Positions 1 through 4,830 of a DNA stretch of 4,830 nt are shown one piece after another. The notes under the pieces were generated by a model. That model was not told where the DNA came from, did no database searches, and was given only the letters and a program-made list of their open reading frames with translations. The stretch's first letter is position 1. Every line of letters starts with the position of its first letter. Location: the IMG/VR virus record IMGVR_UViG_2576861193_000005; one strand, given 5' to 3'. The stretch comes from a virus (lineage: Duplodnaviria; Heunggongvirae; Uroviricota; Caudoviricetes). Made by a program: the position numbers and the translations under genes.

Positions 1-51
1 ACCGCCGGTATCAGCACCCCGCTGACATCCACCATTCTGGAGTTTTACTGA
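1..51 (+). CDS. 3' end of an upstream gene (16 codons, ...TAGISTPLTSTILEFY*), probably terminase large subunit (gpP-like) by P2 gene order; truncated by the window edge
   Basis: Frame 1 is open from base 1 to TGA at 49-51. That stop shares base 51 with the ATG of the portal gene, matching the P2 P/Q overlap as I recall it. No catalytic motif is visible in 16 residues, so identity rests on synteny only. Confidence 0.4.
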   Translation, partial: TAGISTPLTSTILEFY

Positions 52-1107
52 TGAGTAAGAAAAAAGGGAAAACACCGCGACCTGCGGCAAAAACAATCAC
101 CGCCAGCGCCCCGAAAATGGAAGCATTCACCTTTGGCGAGCCGGTGCCGGTACTCGACCGCCGTGACATTCTGGATTACGTCGAGTGCATCAGTAACGGC
201 AGATGGTATGAGCCACCAGTCAGCTTTACCGGTCTGGCAAAAAGCCTGCGTGCTGCCGTGCATCACAGCTCACCGATTTACGTCAAACGTAATATTCTGG
301 CCTCGCAATATTCTGGCTTCAACGTTTATCCCGCATCCGTGGCTTTCGCAACAGGATTTCAGCCGCTTTGTGCTGGATTTTCTGGTGTTCGGTAATGCGT
401 TTCTGGAAAAGCGTTACAGCACCACCGGTAAGGTCATCAGACTGGAAACCTCACCGGCAAAATATACCCGCCGTGGTGTGGAAGAGGATGTTTACTGGTG
501 GGTGCCGTCCTTCAACGAGCCGACAGCCTTCGCACCCGGCTCCGTGTTTCACCTGCTGGAGCCGGATATTAATCAGGAGCTGTACGGCCTGCCGGAATAT
601 CTCAGCGCCCTTAACTCTGCCTGGCTGAATGAGTCGGCCACGCTGTTCCGCCGCAAGTATTACGAAAATGGCGCCGGCGCTCATGCCGGATACATCATGT
701 ACGTCACCGATGCCGTGCAGGATCGCAACGATATCGAAATGCTTCGCGAAAACATGGTTAAGTCGAAAGGCCGCAATAACTTTAAAAATCTGTTTCTCTA
801 TGCCCCACAGGGGAAAGCCGACGGCATTAAAATTATCCCGCTCAGTGAAGTGGCAACGAAGGACGATTTTTTTAATATCAAAAAAGCCAGCGCCGCTGAC
901 CTGCTGGACGCGCATCGCATCCCCTTTCAGTTGATGGGCGGCAAGCCGGAGAACGTCGGGTCACTGGGAGATATTGAGAAAGTGGCAAAGGTCTTTGTCC
1001 GCAATGAGCTAATCCCGTTACAGGACAGGATTCGGGAAATAAACGGCTGGCTCGGTCAGGAGGTCATCCGCTTTAAAAACTACTCACTGGACACTGACAA
1101 CGGCTGA
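51..1107 (+). pseudogene. Q: P2 gpQ-like portal protein gene, disrupted by a +1 frameshift (16-bp insertion near 291-306)
   Basis: ORF 51..395 (frame 3) gives MSKKKGKTPRP...PIYVKRNILAS then junk to a stop at 393-395. ORF 133..1107 (frame 1) is junk until ~298, then RNILASTFIPHPWLSQQDFSRFVLDFLVFGNAFLEKRYS... to a stop at 1105-1107. Both frames encode RNILAS because aatattctggc occurs at 291-301 and again at 307-317. Removing 16 bp joins the frames into a ~346-aa protein, the size and sequence I recall for P2 portal gpQ (344 aa). Confidence 0.8.
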
Positions 1108-1112
1108 ACATC

Positions 1113-1134
1113 GCCGCCTGCGGGCGGCTTTTTT
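1113..1134 (+). terminator. Rho-independent terminator after the portal gene
   Basis: GC stem gccgcc (1113-1118), loop tgcg, ggcggc (1123-1128), then tttttt (1129-1134), starting 6 nt after the Q stop codon. Confidence 0.7.
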
Positions 1135-1276
1135 ACAACCCGCCATCACGCCCTCACACGCTCACCACCGCACAAAACAGCCCGCAGACACACCAACGCC
1201 CCGGCGAACAATCTAAACGCCATCACGACGCGCTCAGACGCTGAAAAAATAAAATCAGCACCACCGCCAGCGCGCA

Positions 1277-1295
1277 GTGCTTTCCCCGCCTCGCC
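1277..1295. other. cos: P2-type cos site (19-nt cohesive-end sequence)
   Basis: gtgctttccccgcctcgcc at 1277-1295 is the exact reverse complement of GGCGAGGCGGGGAAAGCAC, which I recall as the P2/P4 cohesive end. It sits ~170 bp past the portal stop, as in P2, where Q ends ~220 bp from the left genome end. Confidence 0.7.
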
Positions 1296-1312
1296 CGCCC
1301 GCTTCATGGGGT

Positions 1313-1338
1313 GGTTTTAATGCACGGTTTTAATGCAA
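1313..1338. repeat. Two tandem copies of a 13-bp direct repeat (ggttttaatgcac / ggttttaatgcaa) next to cos, followed by a partial third copy (aatgcac, to 1346)
   Basis: Direct reading: 1313-1325 and 1326-1338 differ only at the last base. The repeat lies 18-43 bp from the cos 19-mer. Function unknown. Confidence 0.8.
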
Positions 1339-1397
1339 CAATGCACCTTCTCTAAAACAGGCAGGATAAACTATGAACGATAAAAATCCCCAACAGC

Positions 1398-1421
1398 CAG
1401 TGCATGCAAATACATGCACTG
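1398..1421 (-). terminator. Perfect 9-bp inverted repeat (cagtgcatg / catgcactg, 6-nt spacer) just downstream of the cargo gene stop; possible transcript-end hairpin
   Basis: On the minus-strand RNA the hairpin begins ~19 nt after the TAG stop (1440-1442). A U-run (auuuuuau) follows only after ~11 nt, so it is not a textbook intrinsic terminator. Confidence 0.3.
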
Positions 1422-1439
1422 GTATGCAAATTATAAGCC

Positions 1440-3791
1440 TTAAAGTTCTGTATATATTAGGCGTAGCATATCCTGCGCATAACTTTTCATATCTTCATCA
1501 GTCCATTCACGGATAACGTGCATAGGCTCATTGAGTGCAGTTCTAAACCCATGAATTCTTCTGGCCGTCTCCTCTTCCAAAATACCATCTTCAGCCAGTC
1601 GATTAATACACACAGAAAAATCCGTTCTATCATTTAAGTTGCAGTCTGTCAGTTGTTTGCGATAACGAGAACGGAATTCTGATTCAAGATATGGCCTTAA
1701 AGATAGTATTATTGTCTTATCAGTATCCACACCATTTATAAAATCAACAATCCTCTCATAGGATCTCTCATGGTCTGAAGCTATTAATTGCTCTACCTTC
1801 AGCGGTTCAAAATTAGAACCGTCTTGACCTTGTTTGATCTGAAGAATTCTATCCAAATTAAATTTTTGAGATGTCTTTGCTGCCATTCCTTTATAGTGTG
1901 TAGTAATAAACATCTGTTTTACATAAGGCTGTAATTCATACAACTTCTGCAAAATACAAGATATTCTTTCCTCATCAAAACTTGTTACAGGATCATCCAT
2001 AATAAGAATAGCTTTTGATTTCTCATCATTAGGTAACAAGTAAATTTTAGAAAGAAAGATGCACAAAGCCAAAGCTCGGCGATCTGACTCACTAAACAAA
2101 CAATTAAGTTTGTTTTTTCCAACTGACTTCCCATTAAATGAAACGTCAAGTTCATAAACAATTTTTGTACCCTGCCTGTTTATTTTTTTATTTATAGAAA
2201 ATTTACTAGATCCAACAGAACAGAACAGAGAATTAATGTGCTCAAAATATTTGTTTAAAAATTGCTCCTGGCATTCCTCTAATGTTTTCTTCTTCTCATT
2301 ATAGTTTTTTTCCCTAATATCTATTTCTTTTTTCAGTTCAAGATATTCTCGACAATCTGGCTCAAGCAATAATCTTTTTTTATTAGATTCCCACTGCTCA
2401 AGATCTTTTTGATAGATTCCCAGTAATACATCTAATTTGGTGGAATTGATACTTTCTTTATACTTCACCAACTCATTATTGAGCTGATTAATAATGCTAT
2501 TGTATGATTCCAATTTGCCATGAATTTCATGCTCAAATTGTAGAAGAGACGAAAAATCAAACCCCTTCATTTCGTTGTATACAGCTAATTCTTTCTCATC
2601 ATATATACACTCCAGTGATTGCTGAGCCTTAAGTAGATCTTGGTTAAATGTCAATATATCATTTCTTACTTGATTATAAATAGCACAACATGACTCAAAC
2701 CTTCCATTATTACTTAATTCATTTTTTATCTCATTCTCTAAATACTGTGACAAAACATCAATGTTTTTGCTATGTACATCATCAATTACATTTAATGAGA
2801 TAAATGAAAAATCAAGCCGCCTTATTTCTTTTAATTCTTTTTTTGTACTTTCAATAAAGCGCATAAATGACTCATCAAATGAATCCTTATAAGCACTAAT
2901 CAGCTCTTTTGATTCTCCTGATATACTCTGACCGCAAAACGGACATATTTCTGTGGCCATACCAAGCCCATTTGAGATCCATCCATTAAAATGATCGTGA
3001 GCCTTTATTCTCTCTTTATGTCGCTCTAATATAGAAAGTGCATCGTCATGAATTGTAGCCATTCCAGAAGAAAGACATTTATTAACCCTAATTGAAATAT
3101 CTTTCAACTTTGGTGTACAGTTAATTAAATTAAACAACGGCCTTGCTTTAATATATTTGACGGCTGTTTTCTTCTTTTCAACTTCTTGTATTGACTTAAT
3201 AAGCTCATTTATTTTTGAGTCAACGCAATCATAATCTGTTATGACAGGCTCACTATTAGCATACTCATCAACGTTATCAATTTGGTGTGATTGAATTAAA
3301 TCTTTTTTACTTCTTAACGAACCTCTTAAACTTCTTAATTCTGCATTCTCCTTTTCCAGAGCTTCAAAAGCAGCAACATTGTCTTCACCCAAAATAAATG
3401 CAGTAACACATTCAGAGTTTTCTCGATTAGATACTGTACCTGCCATTACATTTCTATGAACAAAACTCTGATCAAAGATATATAATTTAGAATCTGGTGG
3501 TGGTAATCCTGACCATTTATCTACATAAAATGAAACAACTCTATTTGAACTCCCCTCTGTGAATTGTAAATCAATCTTTGGAGTTACTTCACCATCTCCC
3601 TCCAGAATAGTCTTTCTGTTAACAACCAATTCAGGAGTATTCGTTGATAAAGAATAAAAGATGTCACAAAGAGTACTTTTACCATGTCTATTTTCACCGT
3701 AGATAACATTCATGTTATTAAACTCATAAGAGCTGGAGCGAGCTTTAATATAGTTACCTACGCCCTCTATTAATTTAATCCTCTTTAACAT
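1440..3791 (-). CDS. 783-aa PrrC/RloC-type (AAA_13-like) ABC ATPase with a long coiled-coil insert carrying CxxC, plus a C-terminal domain of unknown function; candidate single-gene anti-phage/abortive-infection protein (RloC-like)
   Basis: Uninterrupted 2352-nt ORF with ATG at 3789-3791, TAG at 1440-1442, and an AAGGA Shine-Dalgarno ~7 nt upstream. Motifs: Walker A GENRHGKST (aa 32-40, nt 3672-3698), Q-loop-like IFDQSF (aa 105-110), CPFC (aa 283-286, nt 2934-2945), signature-like SESDRR (aa 567-572, nt 2076-2093), Walker B/D-loop AILIMDDPVTSFD (aa 594-606), H-loop FITTHY (aa 628-633). Very AT-rich relative to both flanks. Confidence 0.85.
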   Translation of the reverse strand: MLKRIKLIEGVGNYIKARSSSYEFNNMNVIYGENRHGKSTLCDIFYSLSTNTPELVVNRKTILEGDGEVTPKIDLQFTEGSSNRVVSFYVDKWSGLPPPDSKLYIFDQSFVHRNVMAGTVSNRENSECVTAFILGEDNVAAFEALEKENAELRSLRGSLRSKKDLIQSHQIDNVDEYANSEPVITDYDCVDSKINELIKSIQEVEKKKTAVKYIKARPLFNLINCTPKLKDISIRVNKCLSSGMATIHDDALSILERHKERIKAHDHFNGWISNGLGMATEICPFCGQSISGESKELISAYKDSFDESFMRFIESTKKELKEIRRLDFSFISLNVIDDVHSKNIDVLSQYLENEIKNELSNNGRFESCCAIYNQVRNDILTFNQDLLKAQQSLECIYDEKELAVYNEMKGFDFSSLLQFEHEIHGKLESYNSIINQLNNELVKYKESINSTKLDVLLGIYQKDLEQWESNKKRLLLEPDCREYLELKKEIDIREKNYNEKKKTLEECQEQFLNKYFEHINSLFCSVGSSKFSINKKINRQGTKIVYELDVSFNGKSVGKNKLNCLFSESDRRALALCIFLSKIYLLPNDEKSKAILIMDDPVTSFDEERISCILQKLYELQPYVKQMFITTHYKGMAAKTSQKFNLDRILQIKQGQDGSNFEPLKVEQLIASDHERSYERIVDFINGVDTDKTIILSLRPYLESEFRSRYRKQLTDCNLNDRTDFSVCINRLAEDGILEEETARRIHGFRTALNEPMHVIREWTDEDMKSYAQDMLRLIYTEL

Positions 3792-3853
3792 TCTTTTTCC
3801 TTAATTAATTGTTAAGTTTCAATTACAACCAACACAATAAACTTAAGAAAATC

Positions 3854-3882
3854 AATATAATGCACAACAACAAAACTCACAA
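3854..3882 (-). promoter_or_regulatory. Candidate sigma70 promoter for the cargo gene (-35 TTGTGA, 17-nt spacer, -10 TATATT on the minus strand)
   Basis: On the + strand, tcacaa (3877-3882) and aatata (3854-3859) are 17 nt apart. The predicted start near 3846 gives a ~55-nt leader. AT-rich DNA yields many such matches, so this is tentative. Confidence 0.3.
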
Positions 3883-4015
3883 TACCTTACACGCTCGTTA
3901 CCTACTGCAAACTTATCTTGCAATACTAATAATCAAGTTTGAAATCATAATATCACCACATGAAATTGCCATATCGCAGAGGCTCCTTACTCGACAACTA
4001 AAATGTTTATACTCC

Positions 4016-4038
4016 AAAAAGTAAGTTTCTTACTTTTT
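4016..4038. terminator. Perfect 10-bp inverted repeat (aaaaagtaag ttt cttacttttt) between the GC-rich upstream gene and the cargo gene; possible weak bidirectional terminator
   Basis: The hairpin lies 20-42 nt downstream of the upstream gene's TGA (4058-4060). The stem is AU-rich and the U-run forms part of the stem, so predicted stability is low. Confidence 0.3.
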
Positions 4039-4057
4039 AACCGCATTAATTTCTACA

Positions 4058-4830
4058 TCACCTAAAACCTATCCACTCATCAGCGACCGGATACGTGAAT
4101 TGTTTCCCGTCATAATTTACAGTCGCGCCACGCGCCAGCGCCTCAAGCTCCCATCGCTGCGGCCTGATACCGTTCTGAGCAAGGTCAACGCGGATACGGG
4201 TGATTTGCATTCTTTCCGACCGGGTCAGTCTGGCCGATGGTGCAATTTCATGTAGTTTTAACGGGCTTCCGTTTCTTTGCTGACGGTTTGGTCTTCTCAG
4301 GCCGTGTTTTAATGCGCTTCTGAGCGCCCTCACAACCTCCGGGTCATTCCATTCGATAACACCGTCATCAACCAGATTAAGCACTGCTGCGGCGTGCTCA
4401 GAAGGTGTGGGAGCCGGTAACGAAGTATCACCGCCGGTGAGCTTTCCACAGTTATTGACAGGACTCCGAGGCGCGGCGATGCCGCTTTTTAAAGTCAAAG
4501 GCTCAACGACCGGCACTTTCGGAACAATGCGCCAGTCCGTCGTTCTGGTGATATGAATATGACGCGCGCCGAGATGCGGCGCGTAAATGCCGACCACTCT
4601 CTCGACTTCTTCCTCGTACTCGTTAACGTCATCCGACGGGCTACGGGCGACCCTGACAGTCTGACAATCGCGCGGGACATTTGCCCCGCCCTGCGCGCTG
4701 ATATACAACGCAAAATCACCACTGTCTGCAGCGGCGCGTGCAGCCTCGACGCGTTCATCAAACTCATCAGCAATGCTGACGCCGCGAGGCAATTTGCGTA
4801 GTTCACGGTAAGCCCCCATTGTCGGCAGGC
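4058..4830 (-). CDS. 3' portion (at least 257 codons) of a GC-rich prophage core gene running off the window; by P2 gene order possibly replication initiation protein gpA, identity unverified
   Basis: ORF 4058..4819 with TGA at 4058-4060. The frame stays open upstream of the Met at 4819 to the window edge and no Shine-Dalgarno precedes that ATG (upstream reads gcctgccgaca), so the true start is probably beyond the window. GC-rich like the Q side. I do not recognise a diagnostic motif. Confidence 0.6.
   Translation of the reverse strand, partial: LPTMGAYRELRKLPRGVSIADEFDERVEAARAAADSGDFALYISAQGGANVPRDCQTVRVARSPSDDVNEYEEEVERVVGIYAPHLGARHIHITRTTDWRIVPKVPVVEPLTLKSGIAAPRSPVNNCGKLTGGDTSLPAPTPSEHAAAVLNLVDDGVIEWNDPEVVRALRSALKHGLRRPNRQQRNGSPLKLHEIAPSARLTRSERMQITRIRVDLAQNGIRPQRWELEALARGATVNYDGKQFTYPVADEWIGFR

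What the first reader, a model, noticed from the sequence alone, without database searches (positions are those of the whole stretch)
2934..2945. CxxC (CPFC) in the coiled-coil insert: candidate zinc hook
tgtccgttttgc on the minus strand encodes C283-P-F-C286, the only closely spaced Cys pair in the insert. Its position is compatible with an apex, though off-centre (insert ~aa 131-560). Rad50 and RloC use a CxxC hook to coordinate zinc and dimerise; in RloC the hook has been linked to zinc-responsive control of the nuclease.
Basis: partly seen in the sequence, partly recalled or inferred. Interest (0 to 1): 0.5.

Follow-up and report, generated by a model that had tools for sequence, protein, structure and literature searches.

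The report
RloC-type CxxC hook in prophage tRNase
The CPFC motif is real and is the counterpart of the known "zinc hook" cysteines of the bacterial anticodon nuclease RloC, here in a divergent RloC-like defence gene carried by a P2-like prophage of E. coli, so it is a new example of a known feature, whose zinc binding and position at the arm tip remain untested.

Summary
Window 2945-2934 (-) encodes C283-P-F-C286 of a 783-aa ORF (1440-3791, -).

A CxxC appears by chance in 33% of shuffles of this 18-Cys protein, so the evidence is conservation. Both cysteines are present in 209/209 family sequences, on a par with the Walker A/B residues and the R699/E703/H758 nuclease triad.

The protein is an RloC-like ABC ATPase-anticodon nuclease: Pfam AAA_13, and PADLOC candidate PDC-S06 at E 3e-154. 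It is the only cargo gene in the P2 cos-proximal defence hotspot.

The hook-region profile aligns to the Geobacillus kaustophilus RloC hook (hhalign 97.4%, E 1e-11), placing CPFC on CAFC = C288/C291. C288G and C291G make that nuclease hyperactive. Against the whole PDB, the profile's two best hits are the P. furiosus Rad50 zinc-hook structures (E 0.004).

What is not shown:
- The apex position is untested. AlphaFold is weak there (pLDDT ~50), no coordinates were available, and fold searches were non-significant.
- The arms are unequal (160 vs 239 aa), which rules out a simple hairpin.
- No RloC has been shown to bind zinc, and its authors withdrew the hook-specific zinc effect in 2012.

Verdict: new member of a known kind; modest interest.

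The parts
1440..3791 (-). 783-aa RloC-like protein: ABC ATPase head split by a helical insert, followed by a C-terminal anticodon-nuclease-like domain
   Evidence: Complete ORF. Pfam AAA_13 E 8.7e-34. PADLOC PDC-S06 model PDLC04895 matched end to end, E 2.7e-154. Homologues are named 'wobble nucleotide-excising tRNase' by JGI. Foldseek gives Rad50/SMC/LmuB heads as best matches.
2934..2945 (-). CPFC = C283-P284-F285-C286, the hook cysteines
   Evidence: Sequence. Invariant in 209/209 family sequences. Aligned to GkaRloC C288-A-F-C291.
2877..2981 (-). Extended hook motif W271..G275..CPFCGQ..L297..Y301..F305
   Evidence: Conservation: W271 92%, G275 98%, F285 94%, Q288 86%, F305 97%. G275, P284 and G287 are the only clustered conserved Gly/Pro columns inside the insert. 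The profile of this stretch hits the Rad50 hook structures 1L8D and 6ZFF first in the PDB. It is non-helical at 275-292 in the model.
3672..3698 (-). Walker A / P-loop, G32-x-N34-x-x-G37-K38-S-T40
   Evidence: N34 and K38 100%, G37 99%, T40 96%.
2970..3425 (-). N-side arm of the insert, aa 123-274 (helices 123-167, 174-179, 187-215, 229-240, 245-259, 265-274)
   Evidence: AF2 secondary structure. Heptad-like periodicity of conserved hydrophobic columns.
2217..2915 (-). C-side arm of the insert, aa 293-525 (helices 293-324, 333-348, 353-360, 364-402, 414-447, 451-525), with a second conserved turn K400-x3-P404
   Evidence: Secondary structure. K400 97% and P404 70% conserved. It is about 80 aa longer than the N-side arm in every family member.
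1896..2096 (-). Signature-like S567-E-S-D, Walker B D599-D600, Q626, switch H632
   Evidence: S567 98%; D599, D600 and H632 100%; Q626 99%. Matches RecF/SMC_N in this part.
1443..1796 (-). C-terminal domain with the putative anticodon-nuclease triad: R699 (1695-1697), E703 (1683-1685), H758 (1518-1520)
   Evidence: R699 99%, E703 97%, H758 100%. The pattern is R-x3-E-x54-H, against RloC's published R-x3-E-x36-52-H. Intermediate relatives hit the PADLOC PrrC model through the stretch that holds R320/E324.
1277..1295 (-). P2-type cos cohesive-end sequence. It fixes the gene's place in the cos-proximal cargo hotspot of a P2-like prophage.
   Evidence: Exact 19/19 match to GGCGAGGCGGGGAAAGCAC, with 0 matches in 200 shuffles. 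The 19-mer was recalled from memory as the P2 cos sequence. Flanking genes are portal and replication endonuclease.

Best explanation
CPFC is the RloC-type hook motif of a stand-alone, prophage-borne ABC-ATPase/anticodon-nuclease.

Most likely mechanism:
1. The long helical insert folds back on itself and presents the G275...CPFCGQ loop at or near its distal end.
2. Each protomer offers only two invariant metal ligands. Two such loops would therefore share one Zn2+ (four Cys), as in Rad50. The two loops could belong to the two arms of one head-dimer or to two separate dimers.
3. By analogy with G. kaustophilus RloC, this joint holds the C-terminal nuclease (R699/E703/H758) silent.
4. DNA sensing and ATP hydrolysis by the Rad50-like head release the nuclease. 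It then cuts tRNA anticodon loops and aborts infection by a phage that superinfects the P2 lysogen.

Shown here: the motif, its absolute conservation, its homology to the RloC hook, its local likeness to the Rad50 hook, the RloC-like domain order, and the hotspot location.

Inferred: zinc binding, dimerisation through the motif, the apex position, nuclease silencing, and the tRNA target.
For: - Conservation equals that of the catalytic residues. C283 and C286 are at 209/209, like K38, D599, D600, H632 and H758. 144/144 representatives of different 50% clusters have the CxxC. The family has 21,327 representatives at E<=1e-3.
- Homology to the mutated GkaRloC hook: hhalign 97.4%, E 1.2e-11, CPFC on CAFC; BLASTP of the inserts E 0.015. 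C288G and C291G give a hyperactive nuclease, and C291G uncouples it from the ATPase.
- Rad50-hook likeness beyond the cysteines. The 64-position profile against 177,635 PDB sequences puts 1L8D (E 0.0037) and 6ZFF (E 0.0053) first, aligning CPFCgQels..aliesY with CPVCGRELT..LLSKY. Pfam Rad50_zn_hook hits the hook segments of homologues just below threshold (best 21.8 bits against a cut-off of 24.3).
- Only two invariant ligands are nearby; the next are H258 at 79% and C480 at 75%. This half-site fits an intermolecular site.
- The motif sits in the longest helix break of the insert (275-292), in the insert's only conserved Gly/Pro cluster.
- The head fold matches Rad50/SMC/LmuB, and a PADLOC LmuB model covers aa 137-643 at E 5.6e-20.
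- An up-down-up-down path through the helices closes to within 9 helical residues and puts CPFC at the farthest point, 117 helical residues up against 100 for the second turn. This is arithmetic, not a structure.
- Context: single cargo gene between cos/portal and gpA in a P2-like prophage, with 28-35% GC against 50-58% in the flanks. Homologues have no Mre11/SbcD-like neighbour.
Against: - No geometric confirmation.
- The arms are unequal in every member. In this protein they are 160 vs 239 aa. Across the family, Walker A to CxxC is 239+-11 aa and CxxC to Walker B is 301+-17 aa. The Rad50 picture of a central hook on a simple hairpin therefore does not apply as such.
- The window's own hook segment gets no Pfam Rad50_zn_hook hit.
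- Zinc binding has never been shown for any RloC, and the hook-specific zinc effect was withdrawn.
- H258 and C480 co-occur strongly (148 both, 36 neither, 25 discordant), which leaves room for an intramolecular site.
- No experiment exists for this subfamily. It is only a PADLOC candidate.
Confidence: 0.6

Rival explanations
1. Intramolecular zinc latch. C283 and C286 bind one Zn together with H258 and C480 of the same chain (a C2HC site). This would staple the hook region to the descending helix, so the insert would be a compact folded module rather than an extended arm with an intermolecular hook.
For: - H258 (79%) and C480 (75%) are the next most conserved Cys/His in the insert.
- They co-occur: 148 both, 36 neither, 25 discordant out of 209.
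- The arms are unequal.
Against: - 36 members lack both H258 and C480 yet keep the CxxC. The co-occurrence is not corrected for phylogeny.
- By helix counting, H258 sits about 106 and C480 about 37 helical residues above the head in any extended arrangement.
- The best sequence match of the region is the intermolecular Rad50 hook.
Confidence: 0.15
2. Redox switch. The two cysteines form a reversible disulfide, a thioredoxin/glutaredoxin-like CxxC chemistry, that senses the cell's redox state and gates the nuclease without any metal.
For: - CP[FY]C resembles the glutaredoxin CPYC active-site motif (own knowledge, not tested).
- Zinc binding by RloC is unproven.
- Mutating either cysteine activates GkaRloC, which a reduced-versus-oxidised switch could also explain.
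Against: - The context is helical, with no thioredoxin fold.
- No thioredoxin-type family hits the segment, whereas zinc-motif families and the Rad50 hook do.
- The conserved flanks (G after the second Cys, L/Y/F downstream) are those of the Rad50 hook.
Confidence: 0.07
3. Nucleic-acid-binding zinc knuckle. The CxxC loop is part of a small metal-bound element that contacts DNA or tRNA, acting as sensor or substrate clamp rather than as a dimerisation device.
For: - Weak, sub-threshold hits of the segment to assorted zinc-finger and zinc-ribbon families.
- A beta-bridge at 282/289 flanks the CxxC in the sub-model.
- The GkaRloC ATPase is DNA-dependent.
Against: - Only one knuckle (two ligands) is conserved, so no complete finger exists in one chain.
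- In Rad50-like proteins DNA binds at the head, not at the hook (established knowledge).
- All those hits are far below their thresholds.
Confidence: 0.06
4. Chance motif with no function.
For: A CxxC arises in 33% of shuffles of this Cys-rich sequence.
Against: 209/209 conservation across a family that diverges to 14% identity.
Confidence: 0.01

Closest known systems
RloC (wobble nucleotide-excising anticodon nuclease; Geobacillus kaustophilus RloC, Davidov & Kaufmann 2008, PMC2610378; Klaiman et al. 2012, PMC3458546)
   Same: - Same order of landmarks at nearly the same positions. Gka has K44, C288/C291, D572, R692/E696/H737; here they are K38, C283/C286, D599, R699/E703/H758.
- Size is within the published 658-897 aa range.
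- The hook segment is homologous: WVREGLGL..CAFCGNKI against WISNGLGM..CPFCGQSI, hhalign 97.4%.
- It is a stand-alone gene without a linked R-M system, as for most RloC.
- The 2008 list already holds an E. coli APEC O1 orthologue flanked by 'Phage replication initiation, Capsid'.
   Different: - Only about 22% identical over the insert.
- It belongs to a separate sub-group with its own PADLOC model, PDLC04895; classical RloC-like relatives match PDLC04887 or PDLC04890.
- The E-to-H spacing is 54, just outside the published 36-52.
- Met rather than Ser precedes the His.
- No biochemical data exist for this sub-group.
Rad50 / SbcC zinc hook (P. furiosus Rad50 hook, PDB 1L8D, 6ZFF)
   Same: - CP[VF]CG[RQ]xL followed about 9 residues later by LLxxY, within a helical insert of an ABC ATPase.
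- Head fold.
- Two Cys per chain.
   Different: - The hook is not central: 160 vs 239 aa.
- The arms are much shorter.
- There is no Mre11/SbcD partner gene.
- There is an extra C-terminal nuclease domain.
- The Pfam hook model is not reached by this protein.
- The model fragment does not superpose significantly.
Lamassu LmuB (SMC-like ATPase, with or without CxxC hook; PMC12663957)
   Same: - A PADLOC LmuB model aligns over aa 137-643, E 5.6e-20.
- LmuB structures are among the best fold matches (9hqx, 9hqu).
- RloC is recovered among LmuB homologues in that paper.
   Different: - Lamassu needs a separate LmuA effector, and usually LmuC. Here the effector is fused and no partner gene is present.
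- In short LmuB the hook is variable, with 0-2 copies. Here it is invariant.
PrrC anticodon nuclease
   Same: - ABC ATPase plus C-terminal nuclease with an R-x3-E...H triad.
- Relatives of the window protein hit the PADLOC PrrC model through that region.
- Pfam AAA_13. That PrrC belongs to AAA_13 is from my own knowledge and was not tested here.
   Different: - PrrC has no coiled-coil insert and no CxxC.
- It is half the size.
- It is always linked to a type I R-M locus.

Membership tests
RloC (sensu Davidov & Kaufmann 2008) | ABC ATPase motifs (Walker A, signature, Walker B/D-loop, switch His) | tested here: met
   G32..K38-S-T40, S567, D599-D600 and H632 are all 96-100% conserved. Pfam AAA_13.
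RloC (sensu Davidov & Kaufmann 2008) | Largely helical insert splitting the ATPase, interrupted by a loop with a conserved CxxC | tested here: met
   Helices at 123-274 and 293-525 with a non-helical stretch at 275-292 holding CPFC. CxxC in 209/209. Homologous to the GkaRloC hook segment.
RloC (sensu Davidov & Kaufmann 2008) | C-terminal Arg-x3-Glu-x36-52-His anticodon-nuclease triad | tested here: met
   R699-x3-E703-x54-H758, conserved 99/97/100%. The spacing is 2 residues beyond the published range. The link to PrrC's triad region runs through intermediates.
RloC (sensu Davidov & Kaufmann 2008) | Size 658-897 aa | tested here: met
   783 aa; range.
RloC (sensu Davidov & Kaufmann 2008) | Excises the tRNA wobble nucleotide; nuclease governed by a DNA-dependent ATPase | not testable with these tools
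   Biochemical property of GkaRloC. There are no data for this protein.
Zinc hook (Rad50/SbcC type) | CxxC with the hook sequence context (Pfam PF04423) | tested here: inconclusive
   No PF04423 hit for the window's own segment. Homologues reach 21.8 bits against a cut-off of 24.3. The family profile does hit the Rad50 hook structures first in the PDB, E 0.004.
Zinc hook (Rad50/SbcC type) | Located at the apex of an antiparallel coiled coil | tested here: inconclusive
   pLDDT ~50 around the motif and no coordinates. Fold searches of the sub-model were non-significant. Unequal arms exclude a simple hairpin; an up-down-up-down path would still put CPFC most distal (inference).
Zinc hook (Rad50/SbcC type) | Two chains share one Zn through four Cys, giving dimerisation | not testable with these tools
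   Only indirect: two invariant ligands per chain. Not shown for any RloC.
Rad50/SbcC DNA-repair complex | Partner nuclease Mre11/SbcD encoded alongside | tested here: not met
   Single gene between portal/cos and gpA. There is no such neighbour in two homologous loci.
Lamassu | LmuB accompanied by an LmuA effector gene (and LmuC) | tested here: not met
   No adjacent partner genes. The best PADLOC match is PDC-S06, not LmuB.
PrrC | About 400 aa, no insert, embedded in a type I R-M locus | tested here: not met
   783 aa with a 400-aa insert, and the locus is a prophage hotspot.

The most novel reading that the evidence does not exclude
In most of this very large family the 'zinc hook' may not be an intermolecular hook. 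C283/C286 could act with the co-varying H258 and C480 as an intramolecular C2HC zinc latch that pins the descending helix to the hook region. The insert would then be a compact, foldable sensor module whose unlatching fires the anticodon nuclease. The unequal arms and the second conserved turn (K400-x3-P404) would be parts of that module. The Rad50 analogy, used since 2008, would then be wrong in mechanism.
Probability: 0.12. Interest if true: 0.55.

Novelty: new member of a known kind. Interest (0 to 1): 0.3.

Why it matters
RloC-like proteins form a very large family: more than 21,000 clusters at 50% identity match the profile. This one occupies a known defence hotspot of P2-like prophages.

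No RloC or PrrC chain turned up in either the sequence or the fold search of the PDB, and no RloC has been shown to bind zinc. The role of the two invariant cysteines is therefore still an open mechanistic question.

This E. coli allele is a native-host model for settling it. C283S/C286S should be hyper-toxic if the hook silences the nuclease.

For annotation, the gene should be called RloC-like rather than 'AAA family ATPase'.

Tried and rejected
- **NCBIfam:** only partial RecF/ABC matches far below their cut-offs.
- **Sequence search of the PDB with the whole protein:** only RecF, through the Walker B region.
- **Pfam on the window's own 68-aa hook segment:** no Rad50_zn_hook hit, only noise-level zinc-finger families.
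- **Pfam on the C-terminal 131 aa:** nothing usable (DUF4145, E 0.11).
- **Full-length AF2 model:** good overall (pLDDT 84) but weak exactly at the motif, and coordinates are not exposed to me.
- **Sub-model of aa 225-350:**
  - Foldseek ranks 1L8D first, but at E 1.8 and TM 0.22-0.25.
  - I treat both as inconclusive, not as support.
- **tblastn against 50,697 phage records:** no match.
- **Literature:** PDC-S06 gave only census mentions and one remark on an E. coli AAA-ATPase. The P2-hotspot papers do not mention RloC.
- **A simple two-stranded hairpin with CPFC at its centre:** rejected, at 117 vs 204 helical residues.
- **Chance occurrence:** rejected on conservation.
- **My first assumption that the Gka hook is C291/C294:** corrected to C288/C291 after reading the paper.
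Full report
**1. The observation**

The minus strand of window 2934-2945 reads tgtccgttttgc. It encodes C283-P-F-C286 of a complete 783-aa ORF at 1440..3791 (-).

It is the only CxxC in the protein. It is not the only close Cys pair in the insert, because C368 and C369 are adjacent. That pair is not conserved.

The protein has 18 cysteines, and a CxxC appears in 33% of shuffles. The motif's mere presence therefore proves nothing.

**2. Conservation**

- In 29 homologues down to 20% identity, C283 and C286 are invariant. They sit inside a longer conserved motif: W271, G275, CPFCGQ, L297, Y301, F305.
- They stay invariant in 19 sequences down to 14% identity, including Helicobacter and Pontibacter AAA_13 proteins.
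- A profile search of 1.84 billion cluster representatives finds 21,327 relatives at E<=1e-3 and 6,466 at E<=1e-30.
- Of the 144 full-length sequences among the best 150, all carry a CxxC at this place. 143 have exactly one, and 107 read CPFC.
- In a joint alignment of 209 sequences, both cysteines are at 100%. That equals Walker A K38, Walker B D599/D600, switch H632 and H758. R699 is at 99% and E703 at 97%.
- No other Cys or His near the motif is invariant. H258 is at 79% and C480 at 75%.

**3. What the protein is**

- Pfam places it in AAA_13 (E 8.7e-34).
- PADLOC matches its candidate system PDC-S06, model PDLC04895, end to end (E 2.7e-154). A weaker LmuB match covers aa 137-643.
- JGI names several homologues 'wobble nucleotide-excising tRNase'.
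- Foldseek of the AF2 model gives Rad50, SMC heads, Lamassu LmuB, JetC and MukB as best matches. No RloC or PrrC chain turned up in either PDB search.
- The C-terminal domain carries R699-x3-E703-x54-H758. The published RloC signature is R-x3-E-x36-52-H.
- PDC-S06 is a set of 13 PADLOC models that cover the whole RloC-like family. Intermediate relatives also hit the PrrC model through the part that holds PrrC's R320/E324.

**4. Direct link to the studied RloC**

- The supplement of Davidov & Kaufmann 2008 prints the G. kaustophilus RloC hook region...LQEWVREGLGLHKGLECAFCGNKIDVSRWELDRHF....
- The window has ...FNGWISNGLGMATEICPFCGQSISGESKELISAYKDSF....
- hhalign of my hook-region alignment against that segment gives 97.4% probability and E 1.2e-11, with CPFC on CAFC.
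- BLASTP of the two inserts gives E 0.015 and 22% identity over 201 aa, with the same register.
- The Gka cysteines are C288 and C291.
- The landmarks agree closely. Gka has K44, C288/C291, D572, R692/E696/H737; here they are K38, C283/C286, D599, R699/E703/H758.
- The same 2008 table lists an E. coli APEC O1 RloC orthologue of 738 aa flanked by 'Phage replication initiation, Capsid'. RloC in this kind of prophage site was therefore already on record, though as a different allele.

**5. Likeness to the Rad50 hook**

- A 64-position profile of the hook region was searched against all 177,635 distinct PDB sequences. Its two best hits are the P. furiosus Rad50 zinc-hook structures 1L8D (E 0.0037) and 6ZFF (E 0.0053).
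- The alignment runs beyond the cysteines: CPFCgQels..aliesY against CPVCGRELT..LLSKY.
- Pfam's Rad50_zn_hook model hits the hook segments of four homologues just below threshold (best 21.8 bits, cut-off 24.3). It does not hit the window's own segment.

**6. Is it at the apex? Not settled**

- The full-length AF2 model is good overall (pLDDT 84) but drops to 49-66 at residues 241-310.
  - The motif lies in an 18-residue non-helical stretch (275-292) between helices 265-274 and 293-324.
- A model of aa 225-350 alone is better (pLDDT 74.6). It shows helices 227-259, 265-278, 293-325 and 333-349, with a beta-bridge at 282/289 around CPFC.
- In the family alignment, G275, P284 and G287 form the only cluster of conserved Gly/Pro columns inside the 400-aa insert. 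A second conserved turn is K400-x3-P404.
- The arms are unequal in every member.
  - Here they are 160 vs 239 aa, or 117 vs 204 helical residues.
  - Family-wide, Walker A to CxxC is 239+-11 aa and CxxC to Walker B is 301+-17 aa.
  - A simple hairpin with a central hook is therefore impossible.
- An up (117), down (56), up (39), down (109) path through the predicted helices closes to within 9 residues. It would still leave CPFC as the most distal point. This is arithmetic on secondary structure, not a structure.

**7. What is known experimentally, and a correction**

- In GkaRloC, C288G and C291G greatly enhance the nuclease in vivo, and C291G cleaves tRNA-Lys about 20-fold faster in vitro.
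- The 2008 claim that zinc inhibits the wild type but not the hook mutant was withdrawn in 2012.
  - The authors traced it to imidazole left in the fraction.
- The cysteines are thus regulatory in RloC, but zinc binding and hook-mediated dimerisation remain an analogy.

**8. Context**

- The window is part of a P2-like prophage of E. coli.
  - 23 complete genomes hold at least 80% of it.
  - The gene is annotated only as 'AAA family ATPase', between the portal and replication-endonuclease genes.
- The P2 cos 19-mer, recalled from memory, matches exactly at 1277-1295.
- The gene has 28-35% GC against 50-58% in the flanks.
- This is the site where phage P2 itself carries old and tin (own knowledge), and it was described as a defence hotspot by Rousset et al. 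2022 (PMC9122126).
- Homologues in Vibrio parahaemolyticus (next to nSTAND3, DEAD/ResIII and VspR genes) and in Zhongshania are solitary genes without an Mre11/SbcD-like partner.
- No sequenced phage in the INPHARED set carries a homologue.

**9. Mechanism proposed**

- Most likely (0.6 overall): an RloC-type hook.
  - About 0.9 that this is the RloC hook motif.
  - About 0.55 that it binds zinc between chains at a distal turn.
- Two loops, each giving two Cys, would share a Zn2+ and join two arms. The joint keeps the R699/E703/H758 nuclease silent.
- DNA sensing and ATP hydrolysis at the Rad50-like head would release the nuclease. It then cuts tRNA anticodon loops and aborts infection.
- Rivals: an intramolecular C2HC latch with H258 and C480 (0.15), a disulfide redox switch (0.07), a nucleic-acid-binding knuckle (0.06), and chance (0.01).

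**10. Novelty and score**

I file it as a new member of a known kind, with interest 0.3.

The open points are structural: unequal arms, a second conserved turn, H258/C480 co-occurrence, no RloC structure found in the PDB searches, and no zinc measurement for any RloC.

Noticed in passing
window 288-319 (+), within the portal gene at 51-1107: A 16-nt imperfect tandem duplication (CGTAATATTCTGGCCT / CGCAATATTCTGGCTT) is absent from the E. coli XH992 prophage. It shifts the portal (gpQ) reading frame and splits the gene into ORFs 51..395 and 133..1107. Either the prophage is defective or this is a sequence error.
   Followed up: partly
window 1277-1295 (-): Exact match to the 19-nt P2 cos cohesive-end sequence, between the portal gene and the stop codon of the RloC-like gene. 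None was found in 200 shuffles.
   Followed up: yes
window 1440-4050 versus the flanks: The cargo gene and its upstream spacer have 28-35% GC, against 50-58% in the phage genes on both sides. This is typical of horizontally exchanged hotspot cargo.
   Followed up: yes
aa H258 (window 3018-3020) and aa C480 (window 2352-2354): These two semi-conserved residues co-occur across the family: both present in 148, both absent in 36, discordant in 25 of 209. By helix counting they should be far apart in an extended arm. Phylogeny was not corrected for, and the pattern is unexplained.
   Followed up: partly
aa K400-P404 (window 2580-2594): A second conserved feature of the insert: K400 at 97%, followed by a Pro-containing turn (P in 70% of sequences; the window has V404). 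It lies at the break between helices 364-402 and 414-447. Its function is unknown.
   Followed up: no
aa C368-C369 (window 2685-2690): A vicinal Cys-Cys pair in the C-side arm, specific to this allele. The family has L/I and gap/E at these positions.
   Followed up: yes
window 1111-1128 (+) and 1295-1314 (+): Two terminator-like GC-rich hairpins with T runs lie just after the portal stop and next to cos. Five such sites were found in 1100-4100 against 1.0 expected.
   Followed up: no
L002 (V. parahaemolyticus GCA_021886035.1), 1-11200: The 40%-identical homologue sits among an nSTAND3 protein, a 1199-aa DEAD/ResIII helicase, a second ResIII helicase, a VspR-like regulator and a family-B DNA polymerase. 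This looks like a defence island or mobile element.
   Followed up: no
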